Positions 12,691 to 24,090 of a stretch of 64,000 nucleotides of DNA are shown piece after piece. The stretch's first letter is position 1. Each line of letters opens with the position of its first letter. Position numbers and translations under genes: made by a program. The stretch is taken from the NCBI RefSeq assembly GCF_988242995.1, contig NZ_OZ547043.1. One strand, given 5' to 3'. The notes beneath the pieces were generated by a model. It was not told the DNA's origin and did no database searches. It saw only the letters and a program-made list of their open reading frames with translations.

Positions 12691-13944
12691 TTACGCGTAA
12701 ACCGGATAACGTGCGCAGATGTCGAGAACTTTACCTTTGATGCGCTCAATAACCGCTTCATCATTGATGCTGTCCAGCACGTCACACATCCAGCCAGCCA
12801 GTTCTTTCGCTTCTGCTTCTTTGAAACCACGACGGGTAATCGCCGGAGTACCCACGCGAATACCGGAGGTCACAAACGGGCTCTTTGGATCGTTTGGTAC
12901 GCTGTTTTTGTTGACGGTGATGTTAGCACGGCCCAGAGCGGCGTCAGCTTCTTTACCAGTCAGGTTTTTATCAACCAGATCAACCAGGAACAGGTGGTTA
13001 TCAGTACCACCAGAAACCACTTTGTAGCCGCGTTCCAGGAACACTTCTACCATCGCTTTGGCGTTTTTCGCGACCTGCTGCTGGTAAGTTTTGAACTCAG
13101 GCTCCATCGCTTCTTTCAGAGCAACCGCTTTACCGGCGATTACGTGCATCAACGGACCGCCCTGACCACCAGGGAAAACGGCAGAGTTCAGTTTTTTGTA
13201 CAGCTCTTCGCTACCACCTTTCGCCAGGATCAGGCCACCGCGCGGACCCGCCAGGGTTTTGTGAGTGGTGGTAGTCACTACGTGAGCATGAGGAACTGGG
13301 TTCGGGTAAACGCCAGCAGCAACCAGGCCCGCAACGTGCGCCATATCAACGAACAGGTAAGCACCGATGCTGTCAGCGATTTCACGCATTTTCGCCCAGT
13401 CCACCACGCCGGAATATGCAGAGAAGCCACCGATAATCATTTTCGGTTTGTGTTCTTTGGCTTGTTTTTCCAGATCGGCGTAGTCGATATGACCGGTAGC
13501 ATCGATACCGTAAGGAACGATGTTATACAGTTTACCGGAGAAGTTAACCGGAGAACCGTGAGTCAGGTGACCGCCATGCGCCAGGTTCATACCCAGAACG
13601 GTATCGCCTGGTTCCAGCAGCGCGGTGTACACCGCAAAGTTAGCCTGGGAGCCGGAGTGCGGCTGGACGTTAGCGTAGTCAGCGCCGAACAGTTCTTTCG
13701 CACGATCGATCGCCAGTTGTTCAACGATATCAACATACTCGCAACCGCCGTAGTAGCGTTTGCCCGGATAACCTTCAGCATATTTGTTGGTCAGCTGAGA
13801 ACCCTGCGCCTGCATTACGCGCGGGCTGGTGTAGTTTTCGGAGGCGATCAGTTCGATGTGCTCTTCCTGACGTACTTTTTCCTGCTCCATAGCCTGCCAC
13901 AGTTCGGCATCATAATCGGCAATGTTCATTTCACGCTTTAACAT
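12691..13944 (-). CDS. glyA: serine hydroxymethyltransferase
   Basis: ORF matches GlyA ([23 protein letters not shown]...); start set at second ATG for 417 aa. Confidence 0.93.
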
Positions 13945-14197
13945 CCGCATCTCCTGACTCAGCTAACAATAAAATTTTTGGCCTTTATAGGCGGTCCTGT
14001 TGGACAACGGCGAACAGTATAACCGAATCATTGTGCGATAACAGGTCTTGACAAAGGAATTTACGCAAACGATTACCTTCAGGCTGCGCAAGGCTTTGGA
14101 GAATAAAGAGCTTGCAACCGGAAACGGATTTCTTTTCAGGTTTGTGATGCAAATTTTTCACTTCATCACATTCTTTCTGAAAAACACCAAAGAACCA

Positions 14198-14245
14198 TTT
14201 ACATTGCAGGGCTATTTTTTATAAGATGCATTTGAGATACATCAA
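14198..14245 (+). promoter_or_regulatory. hmp promoter (-35 TTTACA, -10 TATAAG) with overlapping FNR-like box TTGAG-N4-ATCAA inside a longer NsrR-like palindrome
   Basis: Hexamers at 14198-14203 and 14220-14225 (16-bp spacer); TTGAGATACATCAA at 14232-14245 just upstream of the hmp SD. Confidence 0.6.
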
Positions 14246-14272
14246 TTAAGATGCAAAAAAAAGGAAGACCAT

Positions 14273-15463
14273 ATGCTTGACGCTCAAACCATCGCTACAG
14301 TAAAAGCCACCATCCCTTTACTGGTGGAAACAGGGCCAAAGTTAACCGCCCATTTCTACGACCGTATGTTTACTCATAACCCAGAACTCAAAGAAATTTT
14401 TAACATGAGTAACCAGCGCAATGGCGATCAACGTGAAGCCCTGTTTAACGCCATTGCCGCCTACGCCAGTAATATTGAAAACCTGCCTGCGCTGCTGCCA
14501 GCGGTAGAAAAAATCGCGCAGAAGCACACCAGTTTCCAGATCAAACCGGAACAGTACAACATCGTCGGCGAACACCTGTTGGCGACGCTGGACGAAATGT
14601 TCAGCCCGGGCCAGGAAGTGCTGGACGCGTGGGGTAAAGCCTATGGCGTACTGGCTAATGTATTTATCAATCGCGAGGCGGAAATCTATAACGAAAACGC
14701 CAGCAAAGCCGGTGGCTGGGAAGGTACTCGCGATTTCCGCATTGTGGCTAAAACACCGCGCAGCGCGCTTATCACCAGCTTCGAACTGGAGCCGGTCGAC
14801 GGTGGCGCAGTGGCAGAATACCGTCCGGGGCAATATCTCGGCGTCTGGCTGAAGCCGGAAGGTTTCCCGCATCAGGAAATTCGTCAGTACTCTTTGACTC
14901 GCAAACCGGATGGCAAAGGCTATCGTATTGCGGTGAAACGCGAAGAGGGTGGGCAGGTATCCAACTGGCTGCACAATCACGCCAATGTTGGCGATGTCGT
15001 GAAACTGGTCGCTCCAGCAGGTGATTTCTTTATGGCTGTCGCAGATGACACACCAGTGACGTTAATCTCTGCCGGTGTCGGTCAAACGCCAATGCTGGCA
15101 ATGCTCGACACGCTGGCAAAAGCTGGCCACACAGCACAAGTGAACTGGTTCCATGCGGCAGAAAATGGCGATGTTCACGCCTTTGCTGATGAAGTTAAGG
15201 AACTGGGGCTGTCACTGCCGCGCTTTACCGCGCACACCTGGTATCGTCAGCCGAGCGAAGCCGATCGCGCTAAAGGTCAGTTTGATAGCGAAGGTCTGAT
15301 GGATTTGAGCAAACTGGAAGGTGCGTTCAGCGATCCGACAATGCAGTTCTATCTCTGCGGCCCGGTTGGCTTCATGCAGTTTGCCGCGAAACAGTTAGTG
15401 GATCTGGGCGTGAAGCAGGAAAACATTCATTACGAATGCTTTGGCCCGCATAAGGTGCTGTGA
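14273..15463 (+). CDS. hmp: flavohemoglobin / nitric oxide dioxygenase
   Basis: 396-aa ORF with N-terminal globin domain and C-terminal FAD/NAD reductase domain. Confidence 0.93.
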
Positions 15464-15906: not shown

Positions 15907-17241
15907 TCATTCCTTGAAATCGTTTGCATCCAGCTCGTGTCGGGAAAGCAGTTTATAAAATTCTGTCCGGTTGCGCCCCGCCATTCTCGCCGCGTGGGTG
16001 ACGTTGCCTTTGGTGATTTGCAGCAGCTTACGCAAATAGTTGAGTTCAAACTGATTACGTGCCTCAACAAAGGTTGGCAGCGCCGTATTTTCACCCTCCA
16101 GCGCCTGCTCCACCAGCGCATCACTAATCACCGGAGATGAGGTCAGCGCCACGCACTGTTCAATCACGTTGACCAACTGGCGCACATTACCCGGCCAGCT
16201 CGCGGTCATCAGGCGTTTCATCGCATCGGTAGAGAACGCGCGGACAAACGGTTTATGTCGCTCTGCCGCCTGGCGCAACAGGTGATTTGCCAGTAGCGGA
16301 ATGTCTTCTGTGCGCTCCGCCAGTGCCGGAATTTTCAGGCTGACAACGTTGAGGCGGTAATAGAGATCTTCGCGGAATTCCCCGCGCGCCATCGCTTTTG
16401 GCAGGTCGCGGTGAGTGGCGGAAATAATCCGCACGTCGATATCAATATCGCGGTTACTGCCCAGCGGGCGCACTTTACGCTCCTGCAACACGCGCAGCAG
16501 TTTGACCTGCAACGGTGCGGGCATATCGCCAATCTCATCGAGAAATAGCGTACCGCCTTCCGCCGCCTGGAATAAACCTTCGCGATTGCTGACAGCGCCA
16601 GTAAACGCGCCACGCGCATGACCAAATAGCTCCGACTCCAGCAATTGCTCGGGTAATGCGCCACAGTTAATAGCAATAAATGGCTTGCTGTTGCGCGGGC
16701 TGGCGTTGTGGATAGCCTGGGCGAAAATCTCTTTCCCGGTGCCGCTCTGGCCGTTAATCAAAACGCTAACGTCTGATTGCGCCACCAGCCGCGCCTGTTC
16801 CAGCAAACGCAGCATCAGCGGGCTGCGGGTGACAATCGCCTCGCGCCAGCGTTCATCGGTGGCTGGCGCGGATTGTTCCAGCGCATCGTCAATTGCCTGA
16901 TATAGCGCATCTTTATCGACAGGCTTGGTGAGGAAACTGAACACTCCCTGCTGTGTTGCAGCAACGGCATCGGGAATAGAACCATGTGCGGTAAGAATAA
17001 TTACCGGCATTCCCGGCTGCACTTTCTGGATTTCAGCAAACAGCTGCATACCATCCATTTCATCCATCCGCAGGTCGCTGATAACTAAATCTACTTTTTC
17101 GCGATTCAGTACCCGTAATCCTTCAGCACCACTTTCCGCCGTGACCACGCTGTAGCCTTCGCTGGTCAGGCGCAGGCCAAGCAGTTTCAGCAATCCCGGA
17201 TCGTCATCGACCAATAATAAATGCGCAGGTTTATGGCTCAT
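15907..17241 (-). CDS. glrR: sigma54-dependent two-component response regulator (NtrC family)
   Basis: Receiver domain (LLVDDD), AAA+ domain with GAFTGA motif, C-terminal HTH; start at ATG 17241 gives 444 aa. Confidence 0.88.
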
Positions 17242-23100: not shown

Positions 23101-23998
23101 TCGGGTGGTTGTGAGTTTCGACTTTCATCAGAATATGCGCCGGTTCCTGATGGAAATCGTAGCGGCCCGTTTCGTGGTCAGCAAAGTAGCGGCCCACTTC
23201 AGAACCTTCCATTACGGCGGCGTTATCTTTATAAGCAGAGAGAACGTGATCCGGCGTGGTTTCGAAGGTGTTTTTGATCATCTTAAACAGCGATTTCGGC
23301 TGCTGTTCACCATCGATAACCCAGTCGGCGTTAAAAATTTTGTGGCGGCAGTGCTCGGAGTTCGCCTGGGCAAACATATACAGTTCGATGTCGTTCGGGT
23401 TACGACCAAGCTTTGTGAAAGCATCCTGCAAATAGTCAATTTCATCTTCCGCCAGTGCCAGGCCAAGACGCAGGTTAGCGTCGATTAGCGCCTGACGGCC
23501 CTGCCCCAGCAAATCAACGCTGGTGACCGGAGTCGGTTGATGGTGTGCAAACAGCTGCTCTGCATCATCTAAAGCAAAAAAGACCGTTTCCATCATGCGG
23601 TCGTGCAGTTCAGCGGTAACCTGCTGCCATTGTTCATTGGTCAGCGTACCGGCTTCTATATAGTAAGCCACGCCGCGCTCAAGACGGTTTACCTGTTGCA
23701 GCCCGCAGTTATGGGCAATATCGGTCGCTTTCGAAGACCAGGGAGAGATGGTGCCAGGACGCGGGGTCACCAGCAGGAGTTTGCCTTGCGGGGCGTGGCT
23801 GGCGAGTGCCGGGCCATATTTCAGCAGGCGTTCAAGTTGTGCGTGCTCATCATCGTTTAACGGCGCATTGAGGTCAGCAAAATGGACATACTCGGCGTAA
23901 ATAGTGTGAACCGGGAGCCTGGCAGCCTGAAAACGTGCCAGCAGTTTGTTGATTCGGAATGCCGACAATGCAGGCGAACCACGCAGAATTTCCATCAT
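20111..23998 (-). CDS. purL: phosphoribosylformylglycinamidine synthase (large single-chain form)
   Basis: 1295-aa ORF with C-terminal glutamine amidotransferase domain. Confidence 0.95.
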
Positions 23999-24074: not shown

Positions 24075-24090
24075 ACGAAACCGTTTGCGT
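24075..24090 (-). promoter_or_regulatory. PurR operator (PUR box) upstream of purL
   Basis: acgaaaccgtttgcgt, reverse complement ACGCAAACGGTTTCGT, a 16-bp palindrome fitting the PurR consensus. Confidence 0.7.

What the first reader, a model, noticed from the sequence alone, without database searches (positions are those of the whole stretch)
14063..14078. PUR-box-like sequence in the glyA-hmp divergent region
ACGCAAACGATTACCT (14063-14078) resembles the PurR operator half-palindrome. The purL upstream site (24075-24090, ACGCAAACGGTTTCGT) is a much better palindrome. glyA feeds one-carbon units into purine synthesis, so a weak PurR site here is plausible. Its distance from the glyA start (about 120 bp) leaves the promoter assignment uncertain.
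Basis: partly seen in the sequence, partly recalled or inferred. Interest (0 to 1): 0.3.

Follow-up and report, generated by a model that had tools for sequence, protein, structure and literature searches.

The report
Known PurR operator upstream of glyA
The flagged 16 bases are the already published, experimentally confirmed binding site through which the E. coli purine repressor PurR turns down the serine hydroxymethyltransferase gene glyA, so the finding is correct but ordinary.

Summary
The window is E. coli chromosome. ACGCAAACGATTACCT is at 14063-14078 exactly as described. Its reverse complement, AGGTAATCGTTTGCGT, is letter for letter the motif listed for glyA in the published PurR ChIP-chip study (Cho 2011), where it is among the most strongly occupied regions. 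RegulonDB rates the site 'confirmed', and a 2019 study shows PurR binding to the glyA promoter and glyA de-repression in a purR deletion.

My own tests agree. A weight matrix built from 26 other PurR sites scores it 21.6 bits, against 22.1 for purL and about 0.004 expected per window. The box is conserved upstream of glyA in 29 of 32 Enterobacterales and 12 of 14 Vibrionaceae, including 17 genomes where hmp is not the neighbour. It is invariant within E. coli while adjacent bases vary.

Two corrections follow:
- The site is not weak as a sequence.
- The promoter assignment is glyA. By homology with a mapped Salmonella start site, the box spans -69 to -54 (centre -61.5), upstream of the -35 region.

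Verdict: real, correctly interpreted, already known. How repression works from that position is the only part I could not document.

The parts
14063..14078 (-). PurR operator (PUR box) of glyA. It reads AGGTAATCGTTTGCGT in the glyA direction. The promoter-proximal half CGTTTGCGT is a perfect consensus half; the distal half matches 5/8.
   Evidence: Sequence. Identical to the glyA motif in Cho 2011 Table 1. 21.6-bit leave-out matrix score. Conserved in Enterobacterales and Vibrionaceae. Invariant in divergent E. coli.
14016..14021 (-). glyA proximal promoter -10 hexamer, TATACT
   Evidence: TTAnACT is invariant in the 22-species alignment. The Salmonella SL1344 TSS table places the same hexamer at -12 to -7 of a mapped glyA start with a 63-nt 5'UTR.
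14009..14009 (-). Inferred glyA transcription start (65-nt 5'UTR). The PUR box is then -69 to -54, centre -61.5.
   Evidence: The Salmonella -50..+1 promoter sequence aligns 46/49 to window 14057..14009. This is inference by homology, not an E. coli measurement.
12691..13944 (-). glyA coding sequence (serine hydroxymethyltransferase, 417 aa), the regulated gene
   Evidence: ORF list. RefSeq annotation of the identical region. ATG at 13944.
14125..14160 (-). Conserved upstream block (TGAAAAATTTGCATCACAAACCTGAAAAGAAATCCG) containing 13-mers like the MetR consensus TGAAnnTnnTTCA. This is the probable MetR activator region, distal to the PUR box.
   Evidence: The block is conserved in Enterobacteriaceae. 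Two MetR sites are reported for the hmp-glyA region (PMC5002191). The pattern scan alone is not significant (177 hits against 179 expected), so exact site coordinates are not verified.
24075..24090 (-). purL PurR operator, the comparator site named in the finding
   Evidence: Sequence. Identical to the purL motif in Cho 2011 Table 1. 22.1 bits.

Best explanation
The 16-mer is the operator through which the purine repressor PurR (a LacI/GalR-family dimer, active when it holds hypoxanthine or guanine) lowers transcription of glyA. This ties the supply of glycine and one-carbon units to purine sufficiency.

- PurR occupies this region in vivo, more strongly when adenine is added.
- PurR binds the glyA promoter in vitro.
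- Loss of purR raises glyA mRNA and protein.

Shown here:
- The sequence scores like a core pur-regulon operator.
- It is under purifying selection.
- It follows glyA rather than hmp across genomes.

Inferred: the box lies at -69 to -54 of the main glyA start, upstream of the -35 region and between the core promoter and the conserved MetR-type activator block. PurR therefore probably does not simply occlude the sigma-70 hexamers. The more likely mechanism is that it dampens initiation by interfering with upstream contacts (alpha C-terminal domain and/or MetR-dependent activation), helped by the DNA kink PurR introduces at the central CpG. That kink is textbook knowledge from the PurR-operator crystal structures, not tested here. 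From memory of Steiert et al. 1990, which I could not read here, repression is only about two-fold, which would fit such a position.
For: - Exact match of the reverse complement AGGTAATCGTTTGCGT to the glyA entry of the PurR ChIP-chip table. Log2 enrichment is 2.08 with adenine and 1.13 without. The motif offset from the glyA ATG is 119 nt both in K-12 (from my recollection of the U00096.2 glyA start coordinate) and in the window.
- RegulonDB lists glyA among the cross-validated 'confirmed' PurR sites.
- A purR deletion raises glyA/GlyA, and EMSA and MST show binding.
- Leave-out matrix score is 21.6 bits against purL 22.1, with 0.0036 expected per window.
- A box of at least 14.8 bits lies 110-150 nt upstream of glyA in 29 of 32 Enterobacterales, and 21-25-bit boxes lie upstream of glyA in 12 of 14 Vibrionaceae. 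No other lineage sampled has one. Across 74 complete loci, 38 of 41 such hits fall in the 400 nt upstream of glyA.
- In a 22-species alignment the only invariant blocks are the box half AAnCGTTTGCnTAAA, the -10 hexamer and the ribosome-binding region.
- Within E. coli, variant bases sit just outside the box, which stays intact.
- Seventeen loci keep the box without hmp as neighbour.
- The Salmonella mapped TSS fixes the -10 hexamer and hence the position.
Against: - The primary footprint and mutational papers (Steiert 1990 and 1992, Lorenz & Stauffer 1996) are not held. I rely on secondary statements and on the ChIP-chip motif call for the exact site.
- The E. coli transcription start is inferred from Salmonella, not measured.
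- The operator position upstream of -35 is atypical. Cho 2011 says PurR sites are generally between -35 and -10.
- glyA is not among the genes named in Cho's main text as changing more than 2-fold, and the supplementary table is not held. The size of the effect is therefore undocumented here.
- The proposed step (anti-activation or upstream-contact interference) is inference only.
Confidence: 0.96

Rival explanations
1. The 16-mer is a chance resemblance with no function.
For: With a crude count of up to 3 mismatches to the perfect palindrome, 5 of 100 shuffles gave two or more hits in the window. One half-site matches only 5/8.
Against: The 21.6-bit score has 0.0036 expected per window. The box is conserved at the same place in 29/32 Enterobacterales and present in 12/14 Vibrionaceae. 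It is invariant while flanking bases vary in E. coli. Published in vivo and in vitro binding exists.
Confidence: 0.005
2. The site mainly regulates the divergent hmp gene, or both genes, rather than glyA.
For: The box lies in a shared 328-bp divergent region. MetR, bound in the same region, is reported to act on both genes.
Against: The box is 195-210 nt from the hmp ATG. It is about 160 nt upstream of the hmp start that I infer from the promoter-like TTTACA-18-TAAGAT and the FNR-like box. Seventeen genomes keep the box upstream of glyA with no hmp next door. The ChIP-chip paper assigns the region to glyA only. I found no report of purine control of hmp.
Confidence: 0.02
3. PurR acts here chiefly as a roadblock to transcripts from a distal glyA promoter, as at purB and purR. 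The box would lie at about +91 to +106 of that start.
For: Salmonella SL1344 has a second glyA start with a 223-nt 5'UTR, which maps to about window 14169. Cho 2011 notes roadblock-type PurR sites at purB and purR.
Against: The -10 region of that distal start is not conserved in E. coli. Read counts in Salmonella are low: 16 and 24, against 22 and 78 for the proximal start. I found no E. coli evidence for such a start. The Vibrionaceae boxes sit only 73-106 nt from the ATG.
Confidence: 0.03
4. The conserved block is the operator of a different LacI-family regulator, which share AAACGTTT-type cores.
For: The central AANCGNTT core is common to many LacI/GalR operators (textbook knowledge).
Against: The outer GCGT/ACGC positions that distinguish PUR boxes are the most conserved part. 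PurR itself was immunoprecipitated on this region and bound in vitro.
Confidence: 0.005

Closest known systems
The published glyA PurR operator of E. coli K-12 (Steiert et al. 1990 and 1992; Lorenz & Stauffer 1996; Cho et al. 2011; RegulonDB)
   Same: Identical 16-mer, identical distance to the glyA ATG (119 nt), same intergenic region. It is the same object.
   Different: Nothing in the box. The window strain differs from K-12 by one base 8 nt distal to the box, at 14086.
Core pur-regulon operators, for example purL in this window (24075-24090), purF and purT
   Same: A 16-bp imperfect palindrome with central CG and one perfect consensus half. Similar matrix score (21.6 against 22.1 for purL). 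Occupied by PurR in vivo.
   Different: Cho 2011 says PurR motifs generally lie between -35 and -10, which was the case at 14 of 32 promoter regions. The glyA box is centred about -61.5, upstream of -35. From memory, repression is about 2-fold rather than the larger factors seen for pur genes.
Peripheral PurR targets outside de novo purine synthesis (glnB, speA, gcvTHP, sdaC, pyrC/pyrD, codBA)
   Same: PurR sites on genes that feed or border nucleotide metabolism. From memory, their repression is modest.
   Different: The glyA site has a much stronger consensus match than, for example, the candidate glnB box in this window (12.3 bits). It is the only such peripheral site rated 'confirmed' by RegulonDB.
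purH-purD-glyA operon of Haemophilus influenzae with a PurR site upstream of purH
   Same: glyA is again placed under PurR control. In the Pasteurellaceae locus L039, purD lies directly upstream of glyA on the same strand.
   Different: Control is achieved by operon membership, not by a dedicated box. No PUR box lies within 400 nt of glyA there.

Membership tests
E. coli-type PurR (LacI/GalR family) operator, the 'PUR box' | 16-bp imperfect palindrome matching ACGNAAACGTTTGCNT with a central CpG | tested here: met
   13/16 match to the perfect palindrome, with one half 8/8. 21.6 bits on a matrix built from 26 other sites, within the range of core pur operators. About 0.004 expected per window.
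E. coli-type PurR (LacI/GalR family) operator, the 'PUR box' | Occupied by PurR in vivo | tested here: met
   Checked by literature look-up, not by experiment. The exact 16-mer is the glyA motif in the ChIP-chip table of Cho 2011, region 2,683,277-2,683,995.
E. coli-type PurR (LacI/GalR family) operator, the 'PUR box' | Binding enhanced by the purine corepressor (hypoxanthine or guanine) | tested here: met
   Literature look-up. Log2 enrichment rises from 1.13 without adenine to 2.08 with adenine.
E. coli-type PurR (LacI/GalR family) operator, the 'PUR box' | Binds purified PurR in vitro at this site (footprint, gel shift) | tested here: met
   Literature look-up. EMSA and MST used a 212-bp glyA promoter fragment. 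RegulonDB rates the site 'confirmed' by cross-validation of footprint, site-mutation and ChIP evidence. The original footprint papers are not held.
E. coli-type PurR (LacI/GalR family) operator, the 'PUR box' | Target gene de-repressed in a purR mutant | tested here: met
   Literature look-up. glyA mRNA and GlyA protein are higher in the purR deletion.
E. coli-type PurR (LacI/GalR family) operator, the 'PUR box' | Conserved upstream of orthologous genes in lineages that use this regulator | tested here: met
   29/32 Enterobacterales and 12/14 Vibrionaceae have a box. None is present in Pseudomonas, Pseudoalteromonas, Shewanella or Idiomarina. Boxes are degraded in reduced symbiont genomes.
E. 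coli-type PurR (LacI/GalR family) operator, the 'PUR box' | Operator overlaps the core promoter (-35 to -10). This is typical but not obligatory: 14 of 32 regions in Cho 2011. | tested here: not met
   The box spans -69 to -54 of the start inferred from the Salmonella TSS. This is not a defining feature; published exceptions include purB and purR.

The most novel reading that the evidence does not exclude
The one open aspect is mechanism. From -61.5, PurR may repress glyA not by promoter occlusion but by cutting the communication between the upstream MetR activator sites and RNA polymerase. It might additionally block a weak distal promoter of the kind mapped in Salmonella. That would make it an anti-activator or dual-mode operator, integrating purine and homocysteine signals on one-carbon supply. 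Lorenz & Stauffer 1996, which I could not read, may already have settled this.
Probability: 0.15. Interest if true: 0.2.

Novelty: already known. Interest (0 to 1): 0.04.

Why it matters
As a discovery it does not matter, because this is a textbook regulatory site first described in 1990. It is useful as a calibration point. A reader working from raw sequence correctly recognised a real transcription-factor operator and its target. The follow-up also shows that a site with one degenerate half can be as strongly occupied and as conserved as a near-perfect palindrome. Biologically, the site links serine-to-glycine conversion and one-carbon production to purine sufficiency. That link is old enough to be kept in both Enterobacterales and Vibrionaceae, and to be achieved by operon fusion in Pasteurellaceae.

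Tried and rejected
1. I tried to read the primary papers (PMC213358 Steiert 1990; PMC204761 He 1993; PMC177144 Lorenz & Stauffer 1995). None is held, so footprint limits and fold-repression come from secondary sources or memory.

2. I looked for an E. coli glyA transcription start in the supplements of Kim 2012 and Mendoza-Vargas 2009, by gene name, b-number and coordinate prefix, and in the Shigella M90T TSS paper. I found only an orthologue table and a primer list. I used the Salmonella SL1344 table instead.

3. Cho 2011 supplementary expression tables are not held.

4. A MetR consensus scan with 2 mismatches gave 177 hits against 179 expected. It is uninformative, so the MetR sites are not pinned.

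5. The simple sigma-70 scan proposed TTGTCA-16-AATGAT for glyA. I rejected it as the main promoter because AATGAT is not conserved, whereas TATACT is invariant and matches the mapped Salmonella start.

6. High-scoring PUR-like 16-mers inside the glyA 3' end of two distant loci turned out to be a coding coincidence, the codons for C-K-R-F-P.

Full report
**Identity of the region.** The 401 nt around the finding are 100% identical to the glyA-hmpA intergenic region of E. coli chromosomes and are present once in 5425 of 5426 complete genomes. RefSeq annotation gives yphH, glyA (minus strand), hmpA (plus strand), glnB and glrR. In the window, glyA is 12691-13944 (minus) and hmp is 14273-15463 (plus).

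**The observation.** ACGCAAACGATTACCT is at 14063-14078 on the plus strand. The purL comparator at 24075-24090 reads ACGCAAACGGTTTCGT on the minus strand. The box is 119-134 nt from the glyA ATG and 195-210 nt from the hmp ATG.

- A crude search for the perfect palindrome with up to 3 mismatches finds only these two sites, against 0.51 expected; 5 of 100 shuffles reached two.
- A sharper test uses a log-odds matrix from the 26 other motifs in the PurR ChIP-chip table. It scores the glyA box 21.6 bits and purL 22.1 bits, and the next hit in 64 kb scores 12.3.
- A score of 21.6 bits is expected 0.0036 times per window, and 2 of 200 Markov-simulated windows reached it.
- The claim that purL is a 'much better palindrome' is overstated. 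It has 6 of 8 complementary pairs against 5 of 8, and each site has one perfect consensus half.

**What is already published.**
- Cho et al. 2011 (PMC3159470), Table 1, lists a PurR-bound region for transcription unit glyA with motif AGGTAATCGTTTGCGT. This is the exact reverse complement of the flagged 16-mer. Log2 enrichment is 2.08 with adenine, the top value in the table, and 1.13 without. The purL motif in that table is also identical to 24075-24090.
- The RegulonDB evidence paper (PMC3548332) lists glyA among the PurR sites upgraded to 'confirmed' by cross-validating footprint, site-mutation and ChIP evidence. It cites Steiert 1990, Steiert 1992 and Lorenz & Stauffer 1996.
- Cheng et al. 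2019 (PMC6658569) show by qRT-PCR and western blot that a purR deletion raises glyA/GlyA. They show by MST and EMSA that purified PurR binds a 212-bp glyA promoter fragment.

**Independent comparative evidence.** I fetched 80 glyA loci from one-genome-per-species contigs and scanned the 400 nt upstream of each glyA.

- 29 of 32 Enterobacterales carry a box of at least 14.8 bits, 110-150 nt upstream, always in the same orientation. The promoter-proximal half CGTTTGCGT is essentially fixed and the distal half is variable (AGGTAAT, AGCCAAT, TGCCAAT).
- The exceptions are reduced symbiont or MAG genomes (L024, L030, L035).
- 12 of 14 Vibrionaceae carry 21-25-bit boxes, but at -73 to -106 (-198 in Salinivibrio).
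- No box is found in Pseudomonas, Pseudoalteromonas, Shewanella, Idiomarina or the two Pasteurellaceae.
- Over the 74 complete loci, 38 of 41 hits of at least 14.8 bits fall in the 400 nt upstream of glyA.
- The two hits inside glyA are a coding coincidence, the codons for CKRFP.
- In a 22-species Enterobacterales alignment, the only invariant blocks are AAnCGTTTGCnTAAA (the box half plus flank), TTAnACT, and the ribosome-binding region.
- Within E. coli, the most divergent alleles carry their differences at 14080, 14083, 14086 and 14088, just outside the box, which is untouched. The window strain differs from K-12 at 14086 only.

**Promoter assignment.** hmp is the divergent neighbour in only 25 Enterobacterales loci. 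Five other Enterobacterales and all twelve box-bearing Vibrionaceae keep the box without hmp. The box therefore belongs to glyA.

I found no E. coli start-site data in the held supplements. The Salmonella SL1344 TSS table (PMC3293720) gives a glyA start with a 63-nt leader and a -50..+1 sequence ending ...GGTTATACTGTTGGCC. This aligns 46/49 to window 14057..14009. Three placements follow:

- The -10 hexamer is TATACT at 14021..14016.
- The inferred start is 14009.
- The box spans -69 to -54, centred at -61.5.

The box is upstream of the -35 region. It is downstream of a conserved block (14125-14160) that contains MetR-consensus-like 13-mers. Two MetR sites are reported for this intergenic region, but my pattern scan cannot pin them.

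Salmonella also has a distal glyA start with a 223-nt leader. It maps to about 14169, but its -10 region is not conserved in E. coli.

**Mechanism.**
- Shown by the literature read here: PurR binds the site, more so with purine excess, and glyA is de-repressed without PurR.
- Textbook knowledge: the PurR dimer needs hypoxanthine or guanine (also stated in PMC10912719) and kinks the operator at the central CpG.
- Inferred: from -61.5, PurR probably does not occlude the sigma-70 hexamers. It more likely weakens upstream contacts or MetR-dependent activation, giving modest repression (about 2-fold from my memory of Steiert 1990, unverified here).

The alternatives are a chance match, hmp control, a roadblock to a distal promoter, or another LacI-family regulator. 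Each is addressed in the rivals section and is unlikely.

**Verdict.** The feature is already known, so interest is very low.

Noticed in passing
window 15914-15929 (+): TTGAAATCGTTTGCAT is the third-best PUR-matrix hit in the window (12.3 bits). It lies about 68 nt upstream of the glnB ATG (15846, minus strand), inside the last codons of glrR. The score alone is not significant (1.7 expected per 64 kb), but glnB is a literature PurR target that the ChIP-chip study failed to detect. It is probably the published glnB operator.
   Followed up: partly
window 14222-14255 (+): hmp promoter region. An FNR-like box, TTGAGATACATCAA (14232-14245), is flanked by a 9-nt direct repeat TAAGATGCA at 14222-14230 and 14247-14255. 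This overlaps the promoter-like TTTACA-18-TAAGAT. From memory this is the known FNR/NsrR control region of hmp; I did not test it.
   Followed up: no
window about 14169 (minus strand): Salmonella SL1344 has a second, distal glyA start (223-nt leader) whose promoter overlaps the hmp -35 region back to back. The upstream part aligns to E. coli, but the -10 region does not. Whether E. coli has this start is unknown.
   Followed up: partly
window 14080-14088: E. coli polymorphisms cluster just distal to the PUR box (14080, 14083, 14086, 14088), while the box and everything promoter-proximal are invariant. Most E. coli genomes, including the K-12 derivative DH1, have A at 14086 where the window has G.
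   Followed up: yes
L039:1-1161 (+): In the Pasteurellaceae species Cricetibacter osteomyelitidis, purD (Pfam GARS_N/A/C) lies directly upstream of glyA on the same strand, and no PUR box is next to glyA. This fits the purH-purD-glyA transcript with a PurR site at purH reported for Haemophilus influenzae.
   Followed up: partly
L048:2727-2742 and L058:2730-2745 (minus strand): Two 18-21-bit PUR-like 16-mers lie inside the 3' end of glyA in two distant species. On the coding strand they read TGC AAA CGT/C TTT CC, the codons for C-K-R-F-P, so they are a coding coincidence.
   Followed up: yes
L024, L030, L035, L052 (upstream of glyA): Reduced or symbiont genomes (Candidatus Pantoea persica, the Pantoea symbiont of Nezara, an uncultured Enterobacterales MAG, Candidatus Enterovibrio escacola) have a decayed box or none at the position where their relatives keep it. 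An example is GGCCAATTGTTTGCGT with the central CG lost. This suggests relaxed PurR control there.
   Followed up: no
window 24075-24090: The purL PUR box named in the finding is also identical to the published ChIP-chip motif. It lies about 85 nt upstream of the ATG implied by the CAT at 23987-23989 (my reading of the sequence, not an annotation).
   Followed up: partly
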